Virus record (IMG/VR): IMGVR_UViG_2537561944_000018
Direction: 5' to 3' (one strand)
DNA from: a virus
Taxonomy: Duplodnaviria; Heunggongvirae; Uroviricota; Caudoviricetes
DNA length: 23,498 bases
Under the pieces are notes generated by a model. That model saw nothing but the letters and a program-made list of their open reading frames with translations. It was not told where the DNA came from and searched no databases. The translations under genes were made by a program, and so were the position numbers. How positions within the stretch are numbered: the first letter of the stretch is position 1; every line of letters starts with the position of its first letter. This document shows, one piece after another, positions 2,137 through 23,498 of this stretch.

Positions 2137-2449
2137 CGAATTTCTCCCGTGTACAGGAACAGAGTTAAAAAGCCGGAACCGGAATCAAATTACAGGATGG
2201 CCATCTGCCAGTGGCTGGTCGTAAAAAAAGGCCACGCCATGCGCAGCCGGAAATAAAGGGATAACGATGATAGTTTGAGAAAAACAGAAACAACACTTTT
2301 GTGGCAAAGCATGGTGCCGGGTGCCTCCCGGTGAATTCAGTATCAGCACCTGAATCCGCGATTATCCCATATACCTGGTTGCTGATCGCCCCTCCGCACA
2401 GGGGGATTCACCATGCAGAAGTGTTTTTAATAAACAGCAAACAAAAAAA

Positions 2450-3214: not shown

Positions 3215-3291
3215 TGGCGCGTTGTAGTGGAGTCGAACCACTGACCGATTGCTTAGAAGGCAATTGCTCTGTCCGACTGAGCTAACAACGC
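3215..3291 (-). tRNA. tRNA-Arg (anticodon UCU), CCA encoded
   Basis: 77-nt cloverleaf: acceptor GCGTTGT/ACAACGC, D-arm GCTC..GAGC, anticodon stem ATTGC/GCAAT with loop CTTCTAA, T-arm AGTGG-TTCGACT-CCACT. Confidence 0.9.
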
Positions 3292-3304
3292 ATGATGCTG
3301 ATAA

Positions 3305-3381
3305 TGGACCGCCATCGGGGACTTGAACCCCGCGCAGCCAGCTTCGAAGGCTGGCGCTCTGTCCCGATGAGCTAATGGCGG
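3305..3381 (-). tRNA. tRNA-Arg (anticodon UCG), CCA encoded
   Basis: 77-nt cloverleaf: anticodon stem CCAGC/GCTGG with loop CTTCGAA, T-loop TTCAAGT; acceptor pairs CCGCCAT with ATGGCGG (C1-G72). Confidence 0.8.
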
Positions 3382-3390
3382 TATGTGATA

Positions 3391-3466
3391 TGGTGGCCCT
3401 TGCTGGATTTGAACCAGCGACCTGGCGATTATGAGTCGCTCGCTCTCACCACTGAGCTAAAGGGCC
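3391..3466 (-). tRNA. tRNA-Ile2-like (anticodon CAU; Met not excluded), CCA encoded
   Basis: 76-nt cloverleaf GGCCCTT...AAGGGCC with anticodon loop CTCATAA; closely resembles E. coli ileX as recalled; first of a three-tRNA cluster as in Stx-type phages. Confidence 0.85.
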
Positions 3467-3494: not shown

Positions 3495-4208
3495 TCAATA
3501 ATCAAGCCCTTGCCTGGATACATATCTGTCTGGCGGGAAGCCATAATAGCGGTGAAATACAGAAATAAAGTAGGACCTGCTTGAATAACCGCATTTTTCT
3601 GCTATAGCCTGTCCATATCCATGCCGGGAACATAACATATTTACAGCAACACGCATCCGCTCTTCCAGCAACAAGCGACTGAACATGCCCCCTTCATTTT
3701 TCAGTTTTGTCTTTAACAAACTCTCACTCATATGCAACTGTAGAGCAATCGCACCAAGCGTCCAGCTTGCTGATATATCTGTCTGAATTATCGCCCTGAC
3801 TTTGGCACTTATGCTGGATAAACATCCACTTAAAAACAATGACATCCGTTCATCTGTTTCAAACAGAGACAGGCAGGCCATCATAAGAAACATATCCGTG
3901 GCCTCTCCGGAAAATCCCTGGCTGGTAATTAAAGCCGCAGCCAACGCAGGATTGTTGGGTTCCAGCAACAGGTAAAGCGGAATGTCAGTCAGACGAGTCC
4001 TCGTCAGCTTATGCTGACTTTCCAGATATTGACTTACGACGGATTCGCTTATATCGACAATTTTAACTTTGCCATAATGCATAAGGAAAAGCTCCCTGAT
4101 GCATTTGGTGGCCAGAACGACTGAGCCTGGCTTAAGTGACAACGTATCCTTTTCAAGAAAAATATTAATTGGGGAGCAAACCATGATAACTGAACAGACA
4201 ACAGCCAT
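3495..4208 (-). CDS. AraC-family transcriptional regulator, AppY/GadX-like, 237 aa
   Basis: C-terminal AraC-type HTH (AIAEKCGYSSRSYFISVFHRYYGFPPDRY); N-terminus MAVVCSV resembles AppY as recalled; ATG at 4208. Confidence 0.8.
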   Translation of the reverse strand: MAVVCSVIMVCSPINIFLEKDTLSLKPGSVVLATKCIRELFLMHYGKVKIVDISESVVSQYLESQHKLTRTRLTDIPLYLLLEPNNPALAAALITSQGFSGEATDMFLMMACLSLFETDERMSLFLSGCLSSISAKVRAIIQTDISASWTLGAIALQLHMSESLLKTKLKNEGGMFSRLLLEERMRVAVNMLCSRHGYGQAIAEKCGYSSRSYFISVFHRYYGFPPDRYVSRQGLDY

Positions 4209-15279: not shown

Positions 15280-15717
15280 TCAATGCACCACAACAGACTC
15301 GCCGGATGACCCGCCGTCGCTGAAATACGCTTTCCGGTAAACTGCCTGGACTGCATCATCATGCGCATCAATTGCCGTGCTCAACGCTTCCTGGGCCGCC
15401 AGTAATGCACGGCGCTCAACAGTGTCAAAAATACTGAGGTGATAACGCAGTTCACGCGGAAGAACAGTCAGGATAGCTGGAATTAGTGCCTGAATTTTTT
15501 CAACAGCATCAGGCGTATCCTTTTCAAGCCAGCGAAAAATATTTTGTATGTTCAATCCAATACCCTCTGTCGTAGAGGTGTCATGCATTGGTGGATAAGT
15601 CATTTCAAGCTCAAAATATGCTGTCGCTATATCATCAGCGATTTTTTTGCGCCCTACCCTCGGATAAAGCAGCCACGCATTCATCGCCATGCGGATGTGC
15701 TCATGCTTGATTTTCAT
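15280..15717 (-). CDS. YdaT-like protein (cII position), 145 aa
   Basis: ATG at 15717 overlaps the Cro-like stop (ATGA); C-terminal ...ERRALLAAQEALSTAIDAHDDAVQAVYRKA resembles Rac YdaT as recalled. Confidence 0.65.
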   Translation of the reverse strand: MKIKHEHIRMAMNAWLLYPRVGRKKIADDIATAYFELEMTYPPMHDTSTTEGIGLNIQNIFRWLEKDTPDAVEKIQALIPAILTVLPRELRYHLSIFDTVERRALLAAQEALSTAIDAHDDAVQAVYRKAYFSDGGSSGESVVVH

Positions 15718-15974
15718 GAATCAACTCCCGCCGCTGCTTGTGCGTTAGCCTGATACTCAACAGGTAAACCATCGGTTGGATTAGGGTATTTATCAGGGCG
15801 CAATTCATGCGGAGTTACTCCCCAGTCAAGCGCCTCACATGCTGGTATAACCTCCTCCGCTGGCACTCGTTTTTTAAACCACCCACTTATGGTTTGCGGT
15901 GTTTTACCAAGACGACGCCCTAATTCTGATTGGCTCATTATTGACAGGATTTTCACTTGAGTACTTTTTTGCAT
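15714..15974 (-). CDS. Cro-like HTH regulator (YdaS/DicC-type), 86 aa
   Basis: ATG at 15974 with GGAGGG 4 nt upstream; HTH SQSELGRRLGKTPQTISGWFKKR; divergent from the repressor gene. Confidence 0.75.
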   Translation of the reverse strand: MQKSTQVKILSIMSQSELGRRLGKTPQTISGWFKKRVPAEEVIPACEALDWGVTPHELRPDKYPNPTDGLPVEYQANAQAAAGVDS

Positions 15975-16100
15975 GTTTCCCTCCGAACTTTACGATGACA
16001 CCGATAATTACAAATTTAAATTTAAATTTCAACTTCTATTTGTAATGCCACTTATCAATTTTTTCTGTAGGATCGCGGAACTAGTTTACGAGGGGTGGTG
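15975..16100. promoter_or_regulatory. Divergent promoter/operator region between the Cro-like and repressor genes
   Basis: Contains AATTACAAATTTAA (16006-16019) and its inverted partner ATTTGTAA (16038-16045) flanking a TTTAAATTTAAATTT repeat; candidate -35/-10 elements on both strands. Confidence 0.5.
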
Positions 16101-16493
16101 ATGATCTTTGTAAAACGCCTTCAGCAGGTGTTGCAGGAATTGAATATAAACCAGTCAGAGCTGGGAAGACGTCTTGGTGTAAAACCCCAATCCGTGCAAG
16201 GTTGGTTGAAAGGCGTGATGCCAAGAATGGATAAACTGGAAAAATTAGCAGAGCTCTCACAACATCCCGTCCATTGGTTCTTTATGGAAGAAGAAACTCT
16301 CGGCGATAAAATGGCTGTATCCAGTAATGACAACCAACCGCAACTTACAGAACAACAACGAAAAATCATATCGCTTTTAGATGAGTTACCTCAAAGCGAC
16401 GCAGAGCAGATCATTCGTGATATGGAGCAAAAACGCGATTTCTATAAACGGAAACTTGAAGAGTTACTGCGGCAGAAAAACAAAACTGCCTGA
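16101..16493 (+). CDS. DicA-like prophage repressor (HTH-XRE), 130 aa
   Basis: ATG at 16101 with AGGGG 5 nt upstream; N-terminal HTH LNINQSELGRRLGVKPQSVQGWLKG and a DicA-like C-terminus (...LPQSDAEQ...YKRKLEELL) as recalled. Confidence 0.8.
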   Translation: MIFVKRLQQVLQELNINQSELGRRLGVKPQSVQGWLKGVMPRMDKLEKLAELSQHPVHWFFMEEETLGDKMAVSSNDNQPQLTEQQRKIISLLDELPQSDAEQIIRDMEQKRDFYKRKLEELLRQKNKTA

Positions 16494-16539
16494 TGCATTC
16501 CTTTTCTGGAACGAGCATCAGGCAAATGACTAGCAGATT

Positions 16540-16898
16540 TTATAATCCAACCAGGCTTTCCAGGGGGATACCAAATTGATTATGAAGACGGCGAATCATT
16601 GGTAACGTAAGGCTTCTGGTACCATTCAACACCTCATAAACCCGATTTTTTTTCCCAATTGCGGGTTCCAAATCTTTCACAGTCAGCCCCTGCTGTTCCA
16701 TGCGAAATCTTATAGCTTCAATTGGGGATGGTGGCTCAATGGGATAATGTTTTTTTCATATTCCTCTATTAGCAAACACATCACCTCAAAAAAATCCCCC
16801 TCAGGCGTGTCAATTTCGGGCTCATTGTCGAACATGGGTTCAACAGCACGCAACGCGGCTTCATAATCTTGCTCTGTACGAATAGGTTTGATGTTCAT
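16540..16898 (-). pseudogene. higA: HigA-like antitoxin, frameshifted at an A7 tract
   Basis: The N-terminal 62-codon ORF (16898-16710) stops shortly after an A7 run (plus T7 16750-16756); the -1 frame continues through an HTH-XRE domain to TAA 16542-16540. One extra A would give a 120-aa protein. Confidence 0.65.
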
Positions 16899-16900
16899 GC

Positions 16901-17203
16901 TTACTCCAGTTCGATGGTATCAGCATCAATAGCATCGTATTCCTTGTGGTTTCCGATGAATTTAACAAATACCCATCCTCGCTGATACGCAATTGCAACA
17001 ATTAAACGGTAATGATTACCTTTTATGTTGAATACCACGCGCCGGTTTTTCAATATACTGGCCGTTCGGTATTGTGCCTTAATGTCTGCTGGGCTTTTCC
17101 AGTCAGCTTTTGCCGCCTCATCCACCCATGCCCTTAGCGGTTGTTCTGCATCAGGATTCTCCGCCCAAAAATCCCTGAGTGTTTTAACTGAGATAATCTT
17201 CAT
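16901..17203 (-). CDS. higB: HigB-family toxin (RelE/ParE superfamily), 100 aa
   Basis: ATG at 17203; ...VVFNIKGNHYRLIVAIAYQRGWVFVKFIGNHKEYD matches the E. coli HigB motif VFNVGGNELRVV...THKEYD as recalled; toxin-first order, stop 2 nt before the higA ATG. Confidence 0.75.
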   Translation of the reverse strand: MKIISVKTLRDFWAENPDAEQPLRAWVDEAAKADWKSPADIKAQYRTASILKNRRVVFNIKGNHYRLIVAIAYQRGWVFVKFIGNHKEYDAIDADTIELE

Positions 17204-17246
17204 AACTGTATAGTAGTCCCATTTTGGGACTGATGCAACAGCCCGC

Positions 17247-17300
17247 AATTACAAATTTAATAATAAACATGTTGACCAGTTAAATTTTAATTTGTAAATT
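17247..17300. promoter_or_regulatory. Second operator-like site with candidate rightward promoter (PdicB-like) upstream of higB
   Basis: Exact 14-mer AATTACAAATTTAA (17247-17260) plus inverted ATTTGTAA (17290-17297); plus-strand TTGACC (17272-17277), 17-bp spacer, TAAATT (17295-17300). Confidence 0.45.
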
Positions 17301-17616
17301 GTATCCATAAACCCACCCCGCCCCACAGAACGCAGGGCAATACTTCGAGTTACCCGGCAGTGGTCAGGGGTTAAGTAGCCAGCCTGAGGCGTATGAACAT
17401 GACGGCGGGGATTACGTTTAACTATGCAGCAGGTTTTTTGTTCCGCTACCCCGGCGTTAAGGGGAAACAGAGGATTTCTCAGTGGGCGAAGTCAAACATC
17501 AGAATGGAAGGCATCCAGGGATCAGCAAAGAAACAGCGATGGCGCTTTATATTGATATCAGCGCCATTGCCGGACAGGTAAGAATTATCAGAGCGGTAAC
17601 TAAGCGGTATGCGCCT

Positions 17617-17817
17617 TTACTTCAGAAAGTCTCTGGTGAGTGCACCGAAGATATTGTCAACGATTTCGTCATCAAACTGCGAGGACTCATCTTCAGTTAC
17701 AAGGTGACCACAATTTTTGCAGATGGCTCCCGCGAAACTGTCAGAGCCATGCGGTTTAAAGGATGTGTCAAAGACTTCGCCACCACATACTGGGCAAGAA
17801 AACTTGATTGTATTCAT
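17617..17817 (-). CDS. Small zinc-ribbon protein (CxxC-N20-CxxC), 66 aa
   Basis: ATG at 17817 with GAGAGGAA 7 nt upstream; CPVCGG...CKNCGH. It lies antisense to a 118-codon plus-strand ORF (17482-17838), so the call is uncertain. Confidence 0.45.
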   Translation of the reverse strand: MNTIKFSCPVCGGEVFDTSFKPHGSDSFAGAICKNCGHLVTEDESSQFDDEIVDNIFGALTRDFLK

Positions 17818-17909
17818 AACCAATTTCCTCTCGAGTAACAGACCCCTCAGAGGATACCACCTCGCCTGACGTGGTTAAAAGCAGGCAGCGCTAACCACAA
17901 GGAGCCGAC

Positions 17910-18128
17910 ATGCAGAAACGAGAACCCGTCATCATCGCGCCAGACTATACCGATGATGAACTTTATGAGTGGATGCACCAGAAAATTAAGGCAGCGCAGG
18001 ACCTGAAATGGGCCAATGAAGCCAGGGCTAAGCAGGCTGAAAATCTGTCCGCTCTGGAGCAGGATATCACCAATCTGGAAAAAGCAGCGGCATTAAGCAT
18101 TGCCAGAATGATTACATACCCGCGTTAA
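17910..18128 (+). CDS. YdfC-like small protein, 72 aa (assigned by position and length only)
   Basis: ATG at 17910 with AAGGAG 5 nt upstream; sits immediately upstream of dicF as ydfC does in Qin. Confidence 0.65.
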   Translation: MQKREPVIIAPDYTDDELYEWMHQKIKAAQDLKWANEARAKQAENLSALEQDITNLEKAAALSIARMITYPR

Positions 18129-18468
18129 TAGCTAACCAACGAAGCTAAGGTTGGTAATTAAGGAGTTCTCCACGGGTGAGGTGGAGTGCGTGCGCCGGAC
18201 ACGGGTGAGCATCCGGCACTGACAGTTTACTGAAAGGATATTCCCTGAAAAGTCAGACCATAACGCGAAAGCGCACGGCGAGGTAGCTGGTTCATAGATA
18301 GCCTGTCGTTAAATTTTCGTCGACCGTGCGCTTCCGGTTGTGGCAATCCGCGAAATGGCGCGGCGGTAAGTATGGCGGGGTTATTCCTTCCCCAGTTGAG
18401 GACACCGGGTTGTCAGGTTGACCATACGCTTAAGTGACAACCCCGCTGCAACGCCCTCTGTTATCAAT

Positions 18469-18526
18469 TTTCTGGTGACGTTTGGCGGTATCAGTTTTAC
18501 TCCGTGGCTGCTCTGCCGCCCTTTTT
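18469..18526 (+). ncRNA. dicF: DicF small regulatory RNA with its U-tail terminator
   Basis: TTTCTGGTGACGTTTGGCGGTATCAGTTTTACTCCGTGGCTGCTCTGCCGCCC followed by T5; matches the DicF sequence as recalled, with one apparent A-to-G difference; lies just upstream of the dicB homologue. Confidence 0.8.
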
Positions 18527-18695
18527 AAAGTGAATTTTGTGATGCGGTGAATGCGGCTCAGCGCACGCGGAACAGTTAAAACCAAAAACAGTGTTATGGG
18601 TGGATTCTCTGTATCCGGCGTTAATTGTTAACTGGTTAACGTCACCTGGAGGCACCAGGCACCGCATCACAAAATTCATTGTTGAGGACGCGATA

Positions 18696-22316: not shown

Positions 22317-23207
22317 TCAGGCTGCCAGATCATTATTTCCGATGGAAGCATAATAAGCTTTTTCTGCTTCTGCCGGAGGAATATGGCCCAGCCTTTCCAG
22401 CAATCGTCGATTGTTATACCAGTCCACCCACGTTAGTGTGGCCAGTTCCACTTCTGTCCGGTTTTTCCAGCTATTACGGTGTATTACCTCCGCTTTGTAA
22501 AGACCATTGATGCTCTCAGCCATCGCGTTGTCATACGAGTCGCCAGTACTCCCTGTTGATGCCAGTAATCCGGCTTCCTTAAGCCGCTGCGTGTAGGCCA
22601 GCGATACATACTGAGAACCTTTATCACTGTGATGGATTGTGCCGGACGGCCGACGGGCCCACAACGCCTGCTCCAGTGCATCCAGCACGAATGTTGTTTC
22701 CATGGATGATGAGACCTGCCATCCCACGATGTATCCGGCGAACACATCAATGATAAACGCCACATAAACGAAGCCCTGCCATGTGCTGACCCAAGTAAAA
22801 TCAGCCACCCACAACTGGTCTGGACGTTCTGCCACGAACTGACGGTTTACGCGGTCGCATGCGGCAACGGCTTTCCGGCTGACGGTAGTGCGGACCTTTT
22901 TACCCCGGAGAACACCGGCAAGCCCCATAACTGCCATGAGACGTGCCACAGTGCATCTGGCCACTCTGATACCTTCCCGTAACAACTGACGCCAGACTTT
23001 ACGCACACCGTATACCTGGTGATTTTCATCGTATACGCGCTGTATCTCTTTCTTCAGCCAGTCATCGTGCTGCGCACGGGCACTGCGTTTATCCGGATGA
23101 TGTCGCTGTTGCTGACAATGGTAATACGTTGACGGGGCAATATGCAGTTCGCTGCATACCGGTCCGACCCCGTACTGCTCACGCAGCTTATCCAGCAGTG
23201 GCATCAT
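22317..23207 (-). CDS. IS629-like transposase OrfB (DDE), about 296 aa from MMPLL
   Basis: DDE/rve motifs (...HHSDKGSQY...YDNAMAES...); the frame stays open upstream to 23297, overlapping orfA for frameshift fusion. Confidence 0.75.
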
Positions 23208-23498
23208 TTTTCCAGAGGCGGTCGAACTCCGCCTTCGCAAAATAAGCGGAAGCCTGGCGAAGGATATCGTTACTGCGGCGCAGTTCACGATTTTCACGTT
23301 CCAGCTCTTTCAGACGCTGACGTTCAGCACTGGTGAGCCCACCATCACCGCCCCCGGTATCCCGCTCATGCTGGCGAACCCAGACACGCAGAGTCTCCGG
23401 CGTACAGCCAATCTTTGGGGCAATGGAACAAATTGCCGCCCACTGTGAGTCATATTCATCCTGACTTTCCAGAACCATACGAATCGCCCGCTGACGGA
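23188..23498 (-). CDS. IS629-like transposase OrfA, 5'-partial (start lies beyond the window)
   Basis: ...[39 protein letters not shown]...[26 protein letters not shown]; HTH and leucine-zipper region of IS3-family OrfA. Confidence 0.75.

What the first reader, a model, noticed from the sequence alone, without database searches (positions are those of the whole stretch)
15975..17300. The same 14-bp operator-like motif appears at the cro/repressor switch and 1.2 kb away upstream of higB and the dicF/dicB operon
AATTACAAATTTAA occurs exactly at 16006-16019 and 17247-17260, each with an inverted partner ATTTGTAA at 16038-16045 and 17290-17297 (half-sites 30 and 41 bp apart). The second site overlaps a plus-strand TTGACC-N17-TAAATT promoter aimed at the ydfC/dicF/dicB operon and lies in the upstream region of higB. 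This looks like OR/OL-type operators of the DicA-like repressor, and implies the repressor could also gate the inserted toxin module.
Basis: partly seen in the sequence, partly recalled or inferred. Interest (0 to 1): 0.55.

Follow-up and report, generated by a model that had tools for sequence, protein, structure and literature searches.

The report
Prophage repressor operators at PR and PL
The repeated 14-bp motif is part of the matched operator sets (OR and OL) of a lambda-like prophage's repressor/Cro switch, which is a textbook arrangement, and the toxin-antitoxin genes lying between them carry their own separate promoter and operator.

Summary
AATTACAAATTTAA is exact at 16006-16019 and 17247-17260, and each copy has an inverted ATTTGTAA partner 30 or 41 bp away. 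A single exact 14-mer repeat is not unusual here: about one is expected in 23.5 kb and five occur. The composite pattern is well beyond chance.

The window is a lambdoid prophage of EHEC O26/O103-type E. coli. The motif is the outer half of a ~20-bp operator (ATTACAAATTTAAATTTAAA) that occurs four times:
- Two abutting inverted copies cover PR (16007-16046).
- Two inverted copies 11 bp apart bracket PL (17248-17267 and 17279-17298).

No other good copy exists in the prophage. The operators are conserved between variable linkers. They recur at PR and PL in Salmonella, Sodalis, Arsenophonus and Serratia relatives that share the repressor's recognition helix, including loci without higBA. Heteroimmune prophages share the PL leader but carry their own motifs in place of these.

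higBA is cargo in the cI–PL slot. It has its own promoter and a GTCCCA-N3-TGGGAC dyad that also accompanies plasmid copies. The OR/OL reading is therefore supported. Gating of the toxin by the repressor is not supported, but it is not excluded. This is a new member of a known kind, closest to CP-933P PaaR2/YdaS and Qin DicA/DicC. Interest is low to moderate.

The parts
15280..15717 (-). YdaT-family gene (CII analog), second gene of the PR operon
   Evidence: Pfam YdaT_toxin, E 1.2e-10. Annotated in O26 11368. Role as CII analog taken from PMC8630535.
15714..15974 (-). Cro-like gene (YdaS family, HTH), first gene of the PR operon
   Evidence: Pfam YdaS_toxin and HTH_3. 55% identical to the YdaS-like protein of a PaaR2-type locus.
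16004..16032 (-). Predicted PR: TTGAAA (16032-16027), 17-nt spacer, AATTAT (16009-16004) preceded by TGT
   Evidence: Promoter scan. The same -35, spacer and -10 layout is conserved in 10 relatives from 5 genera. Coordinates verified.
16007..16026 (.). O_R1, a 20-bp operator ATTACAAATTTAAATTTAAA covering the PR spacer and -10; it contains the first 14-mer
16027..16046 (.). O_R2, an inverted 20-bp operator (reverse complement ATTACAAATAGAAGTTGAAA, 16/20 to O_R1) covering the PR -35 and abutting the putative PRM -35
   Evidence: Inverted repeat I6, 20-nt arms, 80% complementary, 0 nt apart. Also.
16045..16073 (+). Putative PRM: ATGCCA, 17-nt spacer, TAGGAT (low confidence)
   Evidence: TTCTGTAGKAT is conserved in all diverged OR regions. 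It was not found by the consensus scan, so this is an inference.
16101..16493 (+). Prophage repressor, 130 aa: N-terminal HTH_3 plus a helical C-terminal part, with no S24 peptidase domain (DicA/PaaR2 class)
16540..16898 (-). higA, frameshifted in this window (T7 instead of T8 at 16750-16756)
   Evidence: The gene is intact (119 aa) in O26 11368.
16901..17203 (-). higB toxin gene
   Evidence: Pfam HigB_toxin, E 4.8e-33.
17210..17238 (-). Predicted higB promoter: TTGCAT (17238-17233), 17-nt spacer, TACTAT (17215-17210). The dyad GTCCCATTTTGGGAC (17216-17230) lies in the spacer. The ATG is 7 nt after the -10, so the mRNA is probably leaderless.
   Evidence: The same layout occurs in prophage relatives and in plasmid higBA homologs. 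Coordinates verified. It was not listed by the strict consensus scan.
17248..17267 (.). O_L2, a 20-bp operator ATTACAAATTTAATAATAAA (17/20 to O_R1) upstream of the PL -35; it contains the second 14-mer
   Evidence: 15 of 20 columns are invariant in 7 loci while the flanking linkers vary.
17272..17300 (+). Predicted PL: TTGACC, 17-nt spacer, TAAATT. It is the positional homolog of Qin dicBp (TTGACC-17-TAATCT).
17279..17298 (.). O_L1, an inverted 20-bp operator (reverse complement TTTACAAATTAAAATTTAAC, 17/20) covering the PL spacer and -10
   Evidence: (I4: 18 nt, 94% complementary to the PR core).
17310..17415 (+). Conserved 5' leader of the PL transcript, shared with heteroimmune prophages; it marks the edge of the immunity-specific segment
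17910..18128 (+). ydfC, the first annotated gene of the PL operon here
18470..18521 (+). DicF sRNA gene in the PL operon
   Evidence: Rfam RF00039, 75 bits.

Best explanation
The two 14-mers belong to the right and left operators (OR and OL) of a lambdoid prophage immunity region.

The binding unit is a ~20-bp pseudo-symmetric operator (consensus ATTACAAATTTAAATTTAAA, with a strong outer half TTACAAAT). It occurs as an inverted pair at each early promoter.
- At PR, O_R1 and O_R2 abut to form a 40-bp palindrome at 16007-16046. O_R1 lies over the spacer and -10, and O_R2 lies over the -35 next to the repressor gene's own weak promoter.
- At PL, O_L2 (17248-17267) and O_L1 (17279-17298) are split by 11 bp, about one helical turn, that holds most of the -35. 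O_L1 lies over the spacer and -10.

In the lysogen, the 130-aa DicA/PaaR2-class repressor (16101-16493) is inferred to occupy these sites. That would shut off PR (Cro-like ydaS, ydaT, replication genes) and PL (ydfC, dicF, dicB, exonuclease, integrase). Cooperation or looping over the 1.24 kb between OR and OL is possible. The Cro-like protein is expected to use the same sites with the opposite preference. The repressor has no peptidase domain, so induction should go through an antirepressor.

higBA is cargo in the cI–PL slot, with its own promoter and HigA dyad.

Shown here: the sequences, their arrangement, their conservation and their co-variation with the repressor. Inferred: which protein binds, occupancy, looping and the PRM assignment.
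For: 1. Architecture. The order is Cro-like/YdaT genes, a 126-bp intergenic region, the HTH repressor, higAB, a promoter aimed at ydfC-DicF-dicB-exo-int.
2. PR and PL are homologous from the -35 to the -10. An 18-nt core is 94% complementary between 16008-16025 and 17280-17297. In an alignment of 18 promoters from 5 genera, 14 columns are invariant, most of them in the spacer.
3. The 20-mer consensus matches with 4 or fewer mismatches only at 16007-26, 16027-46, 17248-67 and 17279-98, apart from shifted copies within OR and one site at 18524. The null is 0.07 per window. There is no match in a further 47 kb of the O26 genome covering the rest of that prophage.
4. Phylogenetic footprint. Mean column identity is 0.94 for O_L2, 0.96 for O_L1 and 0.95 for the PL -35, against 0.64-0.65 for the linkers between them.
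5. Relatives with the same recognition helix (KPQSVQGWLKG) keep the sites at both promoters. Sodalis and Arsenophonus loci have no higBA yet have both O_L sites. In Serratia, O_L2 is present in the opposite orientation.
6. Immunity specificity. The PL leader occurs in 3752 of 5426 E. coli genomes, but the segment 17236-17309 occurs only with this repressor. Rac, a PaaR2-type locus and a LexA-family-repressor locus carry their own OR motif upstream of the same leader.
7. Precedents. Qin DicA has operators at dicCp and dicBp (PMC10448788, PMC3441716). CP-933P PaaR2/YdaS repress a PL whose operators resemble OR (PMC8630535).
8. Ant and Arc antirepressor modules are annotated in the same prophage in O26 11368.
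Against: - No binding, footprint or transcript-start data exist for this immunity type. Promoters and operators are predictions.
- Only two operators per region can be recognised, not the three of lambda and Qin.
- The 20-mer is very AT-rich and only weakly symmetric internally (about 5 of 8 positions between the halves), so the true protein footprint may differ from the 20-bp unit proposed.
- Part of the O_R1 and O_L1 conservation could reflect promoter function (TG-extended -10) rather than repressor binding.
- The degenerate 9-mer core alone is not enriched in the window.
- In the Salmonella loci L010 and L012 I could not locate a PL with these sites.
Confidence: 0.85

Rival explanations
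1. Dual use. O_L2 (the second 14-mer) is an OL operator and also controls the divergent higB promoter. It would stand in for the distal HigA operator that plasmid copies have, so the lysogenic repressor couples toxin-antitoxin transcription to the switch.
For: - The outer end of O_L2 lies 9 bp upstream of the predicted higB -35, centred about -49.
- Plasmid higBA homologs carry a second RTCCCA-N3-TGGGAC dyad 7 nt upstream of their -35. The prophage copies lack it and have O_L2 there instead.
- The 9-nt distance from the 9-mer to the -35 is kept in 7 loci although the linker sequence varies.
- The repressor and higBA co-occur in the same number of complete E. coli genomes, 148, and sit next to each other in every locus examined.
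- In CP-933P a toxin-antitoxin pair is controlled by the switch (PMC8630535).
Against: - higBA keeps a complete promoter and the proximal dyad in the spacer, which is enough for classical autoregulation.
- O_L2 is present at the same distance from PL in Sodalis and Arsenophonus loci that have no higBA, so PL alone explains its position.
- The constant spacing may simply reflect a single ancestral insertion.
- No expression data exist.
Confidence: 0.15
2. The second site is an operator of HigA or the HigBA complex and belongs to the toxin-antitoxin cassette. Its resemblance to the OR sequence is coincidental.
For: It lies in the higB upstream region. HigA has an HTH domain.
Against: - Plasmid higBA homologs with 84-91% identical HigB have no such motif upstream. 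They carry RTCCCA-N3-TGGGAC dyads, one of which is also in the prophage copy's promoter spacer.
- The motif is present at PL in loci without higBA.
- It matches OR at 17 of 20 positions.
Confidence: 0.03
3. Chance or structural similarity of AT-rich promoter DNA (UP-element-like, curved or H-NS-bound) with no sequence-specific repressor binding.
For: - The cores are only 18-22% G+C.
- About one exact 14-mer repeat is expected per window and five are seen.
- The degenerate 9-mer is not enriched.
- (AAATTT)n tracts produce many trivial self-matches.
Against: - The composition-matched probability of a shared 14-mer is about 5e-4.
- The inverted-pair pattern has 2 matches against 0.00 expected.
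- The blocks are conserved between variable linkers.
- The same sites occur in 5 genera wherever the recognition helix is the same, and they are replaced by other motifs in heteroimmune prophages.
Confidence: 0.04

Closest known systems
CP-933P (Sp12) immunity region of E. coli O157:H7: PaaR2 (CI analog), YdaS (Cro analog), YdaT (CII analog), with paaA2-parE2 between the repressor gene and PL933P (PMC8630535)
   Same: - Same gene order: YdaT, YdaS, OR, a short HTH repressor without a peptidase domain, a toxin-antitoxin pair, then PL.
- In that system OL operators resemble OR, and both PaaR2 and YdaS repress PL and PR.
- The repressor here is 32% identical over its full length to a PaaR2-type repressor, and the Cro-like protein is 55% identical to its partner.
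   Different: - The operator sequence differs. CP-933P has four 18-bp palindromes with half-site GTTTAGTAA.
- The toxin-antitoxin pair here is higBA, not paaA2-parE2. It is transcribed convergently to the repressor gene from its own promoter with a DNA-binding antitoxin, rather than being co-transcribed from PRM with a non-DNA-binding antitoxin.
Qin prophage DicA/DicC switch and dicBp of E. coli K-12 (PMC10448788, PMC3441716)
   Same: - PL here is the positional homolog of dicBp: TTGACC-17-TAAATT against TTGACC-17-TAATCT, followed by the ydfA 5'UTR, ydfC, dicF and dicB.
- One operator lies in the spacer and -10, and one lies upstream of the -35.
- The repressor has the same domain plan and lacks the RecA cleavage site.
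   Different: - Only 22% identity to DicA, with a different recognition helix.
- The DicA operator is TTGTTAG-N6-CTAACAA.
- Qin has no toxin-antitoxin pair between dicA and dicBp.
- Qin lacks the ~100-nt conserved leader.
Bacteriophage lambda OR/OL with rexAB between cI and PL (textbook knowledge; summarised in PMC8630535)
   Same: - Matched operator sets at two divergent early promoters flank the repressor gene.
- Accessory genes sit in the cI–PL slot.
- One operator lies next to the PRM -35.
- OL-OR looping is possible.
   Different: - Two recognisable operators per region instead of three 17-bp sites.
- The sites are arranged as inverted pairs bracketing the -35.
- The repressor lacks the S24 peptidase domain, so induction is probably by an antirepressor.
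- There is no N gene and no recognisable nut site.
Rac prophage RacR/YdaS/YdaT of E. coli K-12
   Same: Same module order and the same conserved PL leader. The operators TTAGGC-N4-GCCTAA are repeated at OR and PL.
   Different: Unrelated operator sequence and a larger repressor (158 aa).

Membership tests
Lambdoid immunity region (OR/OL operator system) | Divergent repressor and cro-like genes separated by a short regulatory region that holds PR and PRM | tested here: met
   The Cro-like gene 15714-15974 (-) and the repressor gene 16101-16493 (+) are separated by 126 bp. PR is predicted at 16004-16032.
Lambdoid immunity region (OR/OL operator system) | The same operator sequence is repeated at a second early promoter (PL) on the far side of the repressor gene, pointing away from it | tested here: met
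   O_L1 and O_L2 each match O_R1 at 17 of 20 positions and overlap TTGACC-17-TAAATT, which points at ydfC/dicF/dicB.
Lambdoid immunity region (OR/OL operator system) | Operators are immunity-specific: they co-vary with the repressor and lie inside the mosaic immunity module | tested here: met
   The leader is shared by 3752 genomes, but 17236-17309 is found only with this repressor. Rac, PaaR2-type and LexA-family-repressor loci carry their own motifs. Relatives with the same recognition helix have the same sites.
Lambdoid immunity region (OR/OL operator system) | Three tandem operators in each of OR and OL | tested here: not met
   Only two 20-bp units are recognisable at each region. A degenerate third site cannot be excluded.
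Lambdoid immunity region (OR/OL operator system) | Repressor and Cro bind the operators and repress PR and PL | not testable with these tools
   Needs EMSA, footprinting or reporter assays.
DicA/PaaR2-class short prophage repressors | About 130 aa: N-terminal Cro/C1-type HTH, a helical C-terminal part, and no S24 peptidase or Ala-Gly cleavage module | tested here: met
   The only Pfam families matched are the HTH families HTH_3 and HTH_26, both within residues 8-53 of the 132-aa ORF (GTG at 16095). The annotated protein is 130 aa (ATG at 16101). It aligns over its full length with DicA and a PaaR2-type protein, including the C-terminal LPxSD...ELL region.
DicA/PaaR2-class short prophage repressors | Significant sequence homology to DicA or PaaR2 | tested here: met
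   22% identity to DicA (pairwise E 2e-7). 32% identity to the PaaR2-type repressor of locus L020 (E 2e-22). tblastn hits to dicA-annotated genes and to Gifsy-1 and Gifsy-2 repressors.
DicA/PaaR2-class short prophage repressors | Higher-order oligomer (PaaR2 octamer) that allows cooperative or looped binding | not testable with these tools
   Known for PaaR2 only (PMC8630535).
HigA/HigBA operator | The motif travels with higBA in unrelated genomic contexts and overlaps the higB core promoter | tested here: not met
   Plasmid homologs have RTCCCA-N3-TGGGAC dyads and no AATTACAAATTTAA. The 14-mer lies upstream of the higB -35.

The most novel reading that the evidence does not exclude
O_L2 has taken over the position of the distal HigA operator of the higBA cassette, so the prophage repressor (or the Cro-like protein) and HigA jointly set higB transcription. 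That would wire a ribosome-dependent mRNase toxin into the lysis-lysogeny switch. In this particular strain HigA appears to have lost its DNA-binding domain through a frameshift, which would leave the prophage repressor as the only regulator near PhigB.
Probability: 0.15. Interest if true: 0.5.

Novelty: new member of a known kind. Interest (0 to 1): 0.3.

Why it matters
This result defines the operator sequence and layout of one immunity type: inverted 20-bp sites that bracket the -35 of PR and PL. That type is carried by 148 of 5426 complete E. coli genomes, mostly O26, O103, O45 and O111 EHEC, and by relatives in Salmonella, Sodalis, Arsenophonus and Serratia. It predicts which prophages are homoimmune. 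It also shows how the dicF/dicB cell-division inhibitors are kept silent in these pathogens. The locus adds a second example, after CP-933P, of a toxin-antitoxin pair lodged between the repressor gene and PL. It is a textbook regulatory logic, not a new mechanism.

Tried and rejected
- A genome-contig scan with the repressor protein returned nothing. I used the protein database plus contig look-ups instead.
- The degenerate 9-mers AYTRCARWT and WYTRCAAWT are not enriched as a stand-alone motif, so I dropped them in favour of the 20-mer and the paired pattern.
- I looked for a small internal dyad (AATT-N3-AATT) as the binding unit. The spacing is inconsistent in Salmonella (AATTGCAATT has no centre base), so I rejected it.
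- I looked for a third operator. The 'middle' match in OR is probably only the PR -35 (TTGAAA).
- PRM as ATGACA-16-TAAATT from the scan is not conserved in relatives. I replaced it with the conserved TTCTGTAGKAT region, still at low confidence.
- PL could not be located in the Salmonella loci L010 and L012.
- PL leader: there is no Rfam match even at E of 10 or less. RNAalifold support is weak (-20 and -6.6 kcal/mol, few compensatory pairs). There is no second copy in the window, and nothing in the Rac paper.
- A literature search for the operator strings found only irrelevant primers.
- No paper on higBA in this slot turned up.
- A PDB sequence search with the repressor gave only a weak LexA-type HTH hit. 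I did not run structure prediction because it would not settle the oligomeric state.
Full report
**Observation.** AATTACAAATTTAA occurs exactly at 16006-16019 and 17247-17260. Each copy is followed by an inverted ATTTGTAA, at 16038-16045 and 17290-17297. The pattern TTACAAAT-N(20-36)-ATTTGTAA has exactly these two matches in the window, against 0.00 expected in 100 shuffles. The + strand promoter-like site TTGACC(17272)-N17-TAAATT(17300) is real.

One caution applies. An exact 14-mer direct repeat is not remarkable on its own. About one is expected in 23.5 kb, and five unrelated ones occur. The degenerate 9-mer core is not enriched over the whole window. The signal lies in three other results. 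First, the inverted pairs are far beyond chance. Second, two cores of this composition share a 14-mer with probability of about 5e-4. Third, the extended 20-mer described below is confined to the two regulatory regions.

**What the window is.** The stretch 15700-18200 is 99.9% identical to a prophage in E. coli O26:H11 11368, O103:H2 12009 and many other EHEC genomes. The annotation of O26 11368, Pfam and Rfam give this order:
- replication genes on the minus strand
- YdaT-like gene, 15280-15717 (-)
- Cro-like YdaS-family gene, 15714-15974 (-)
- a 126-bp intergenic region
- a 130-aa HTH repressor, 16101-16493 (+)
- higA and higB, 16540-17203 (-)
- a 700-bp region that holds the second site
- ydfC, 17910 (+)
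- DicF, 18470-18521 (+)
- dicB, exonuclease and integrase

This is the lambda immunity-region plan turned around: cro, then OR, then cI, then accessory genes, then OL/PL, then the early-left operon.

**Fine anatomy.**
- PR is predicted on the minus strand as TTGAAA (16032-16027), a 17-nt spacer, and AATTAT (16009-16004) preceded by TGT.
- PL is predicted on the plus strand as TTGACC, a 17-nt spacer, and TAAATT.
- The spacer and -10 of PR (16008-16025) are 94% complementary to those of PL (17280-17297) (I4). The two promoters are therefore homologous when each is read in its own direction.

The two exact 14-mers are not positional equivalents. The first lies over the PR -10. The second lies upstream of the PL -35.

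The repeated unit is about 20 bp long:
- O_R1, 16007-16026: ATTACAAATTTAAATTTAAA
- O_R2, 16027-16046, read on the other strand: ATTACAAATAGAAGTTGAAA (16/20)
- O_L2, 17248-17267: ATTACAAATTTAATAATAAA (17/20)
- O_L1, 17279-17298, other strand: TTTACAAATTAAAATTTAAC (17/20)

OR is thus a 40-bp palindrome of two abutting units. OL is the same pair with 11 bp (CATGTTGACCA) inserted at the centre.

With 4 or fewer mismatches, the 20-mer is found only at these places, apart from shifted self-matches in the (AAATTT)n tract and one site at 18524-18543. The null is 0.07 per window. It is absent, even at 5 mismatches, from a further 47 kb of the O26 genome that includes the rest of the prophage.

**Comparative tests.**

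(a) Co-occurrence. The repressor and higBA each occur in 148 of 5426 complete E. coli genomes, at 149 places each, and are adjacent in every locus examined. Among seven loci 94-100% identical, plus a Salmonella locus, mean column identity was measured block by block:

| Block | Mean column identity |
|---|---|
| O_L2 | 0.94 |
| O_L1 | 0.96 |
| PL -35 | 0.95 |
| higB dyad | 0.95 |
| linker between the higB -35 and O_L2 | 0.65 |
| linker between O_L2 and the PL -35 | 0.64 |

(b) More distant repressor homologs were fetched from Salmonella (70-74% identity), Sodalis (71%), Serratia (47-58%, depending on the alignment) and Arsenophonus (52%). All keep the recognition helix KPQSVQGWLKG. All show the same -35, spacer and -10 layout at PR and, where PL could be found, at PL. 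In an alignment of 18 promoters, 14 columns are invariant, most of them in the spacer, where sigma-70 promoters are not normally conserved. The cargo between the repressor gene and PL differs among these loci:
- higBA in some Salmonella loci
- a PLD-family gene in S. diarizonae
- a PaaA2-like gene in S. Javiana
- no Pfam-recognisable cargo (two small unannotated ORFs) in Serratia
- nothing in Sodalis and Arsenophonus

The Sodalis and Arsenophonus PL regions still have both O_L sites. In Arsenophonus the sequence is AATTACAAATTAAAT...TTGACA-17-TAGATT. In Serratia, O_L2 is present in the opposite orientation. That fits a pseudo-symmetric site for a dimer.

(c) The ~100 nt downstream of PL (17310-17410) occur in 3752 genomes, but the segment 17236-17309 is found only with this repressor. 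Upstream of the same leader, heteroimmune prophages carry their own OR motif:
- Rac has TTAGGC-N4-GCCTAA.
- A PaaR2-type locus has an inverted pair of ACAATWAAAAACTGT that brackets its -35.
- A locus with a LexA-family repressor has AAAACAT/ATGTTTT.

The immunity-specific DNA therefore ends just after the PL -10, as expected for OL.

(d) Plasmid higBA homologs (HigB 84-91% identical) sit in a phage-plasmid and in an IncF plasmid. They have no AATTACAAATTTAA upstream. They have two RTCCCA-N3-TGGGAC dyads, one in the promoter spacer and one 7 nt upstream of the -35. The prophage copies keep the promoter: TTGCAT at 17238-17233, a 17-nt spacer, and TACTAT at 17215-17210. The ATG follows the -10 by 7 nt, so the mRNA is probably leaderless. 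They also keep the spacer dyad GTCCCATTTTGGGAC at 17216-17230, but not the distal dyad.

**Mechanism (inferred).** The 130-aa repressor has an N-terminal Cro/C1 HTH and a helical C-terminal part, with no peptidase domain. It is 32% identical to a PaaR2-type repressor and 22% identical to DicA over its full length. It most likely binds the four 20-bp sites. Binding would block PR at O_R1 and O_R2 and block PL at O_L1 and O_L2. O_R2 abuts the -35 of a conserved weak promoter (ATGCCA-17-TAGGAT, 16045-16073), from which the repressor may autoregulate in the way lambda CI and DicA do. This last point is low confidence.

The Cro-like protein is 55% identical to the YdaS partner of the PaaR2-type locus and is expected to compete for the same sites, as shown for CP-933P. 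OL and OR are 1.24 kb apart. PaaR2 forms octamers, so looping is possible. Ant and Arc modules in the same prophage fit induction by an antirepressor, as for DicA/Rem and the Gifsy repressors.

**higBA.** The toxin-antitoxin pair is cargo in the cI–PL slot with its own autoregulatory signals. The evidence does not support the claim that the repressor gates it. It cannot be excluded either, for two reasons. The outer 9-mer of O_L2 ends 9 nt from the higB -35 in all seven higBA-bearing loci, although the linker sequence varies. O_L2 also occupies roughly the place of the plasmid copies' distal dyad. However, Sodalis and Arsenophonus show that O_L2 sits at that distance from PL even without higBA.

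**Comparison and novelty.** The closest known systems are listed here.
- The CP-933P PaaR2/YdaS/YdaT region with paaA2-parE2 (PMC8630535).
- The Qin DicA/DicC/dicBp switch (PMC10448788, PMC3441716), whose dicBp is the positional homolog of this PL.

The operator sequence, the inverted-pair layout and the convergent, self-promoted higBA are specific to this immunity type. I found no description of them in the searchable literature. The logic is textbook. This is a new member of a known kind and of modest interest.

Noticed in passing
window 17310-17415 (+): A ~100-nt leader lies just downstream of PL. It is present in 3752 of 5426 complete E. coli genomes and is always placed after the PL-type promoter of heteroimmune Rac-, CP-933P- and Qin-like prophages. 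It also occurs in Sodalis, Arsenophonus and, in part, Serratia. It is unannotated and has no Rfam match even at E of 10 or less. A hairpin GGG-CAATACTTCGAGTTA-CCC (17335-17355) changes to AGA...TCT in Arsenophonus. The leader ends in GAGG-N9-ATG of a short, non-conserved ORF. It may be a put- or nut-like antitermination or processing element. Covariation support is weak.
   Followed up: partly
window 16750-16756: The T-run is T7 here and T8 in O26 11368. This frameshifts higA after codon 49; the reading frame then ends at 62 aa and the C-terminal HTH is lost. None of the 148 complete genomes with this locus shares the change (best identity 99.9%). It is either a strain-specific mutation or a homopolymer sequencing error.
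   Followed up: partly
L027 1360-1506 and L028 1380-1506 compared with window 17204-17260: Plasmid higBA homologs carry two RTCCCA-N3-TGGGAC dyads, one in the promoter spacer and one 7 nt upstream of the -35. The prophage copies keep only the spacer dyad and have the prophage operator O_L2 in the distal position.
   Followed up: yes
L007-L015, L024, L025 (slot between the repressor gene and PL): Repressors with the same recognition helix are followed by different cargo in different hosts: higBA, a PLD-family gene (424 aa), a PaaA2-like antitoxin gene with a TM2 gene, or nothing. The slot behaves like a moron or defence-gene insertion point.
   Followed up: partly
window 18524-18543 (-): ATCACAAAATTCACTTTAAA matches the 20-bp operator consensus with 4 mismatches, immediately after the 3' end of DicF. 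It is the only such match outside OR and OL, and it may be chance.
   Followed up: no
window 16489-16525: A hairpin GCCTGATGC...GCATCAGGC lies between the convergent repressor and higA genes. It is followed by a T-run on the minus strand, so it probably terminates the higBA transcript. A comparable hairpin follows the repressor gene in relatives without higBA.
   Followed up: no
window 17424-17900: The ydfA 5'UTR (GCAGCAGG...GTTCCGCTACCCCGGCGTTAAGGGGAAA) is retained, but ydfA and ydfB are missing. A minus-strand zinc-ribbon gene of the ECs_2282 family (17617-17823) occupies the space, antisense to the PL transcript.
   Followed up: no
L029 547-1116 and 17808-19403 (O26 11368, same prophage, outside the window): An antirepressor-N-domain gene sits in the lysis region, and an Arc-Arc-Ant module sits among the tail genes. 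Both are candidates for inactivating the non-cleavable repressor.
   Followed up: no
window 4130-4157 compared with 18428 and 15514: Two adjacent exact repeats of 14 and 15 nt, inside a minus-strand ORF, match sites near DicF and inside the ydaT-like gene. They are probably chance.
   Followed up: no
window 2273-2445, 3218-3466, 23133-23248: Rfam finds STnc100, three tRNA genes (typical of the late-regulatory region of lambdoid Stx-type prophages), and an ALIL frameshift pseudoknot from an IS3-family element at the end of the window.
   Followed up: no
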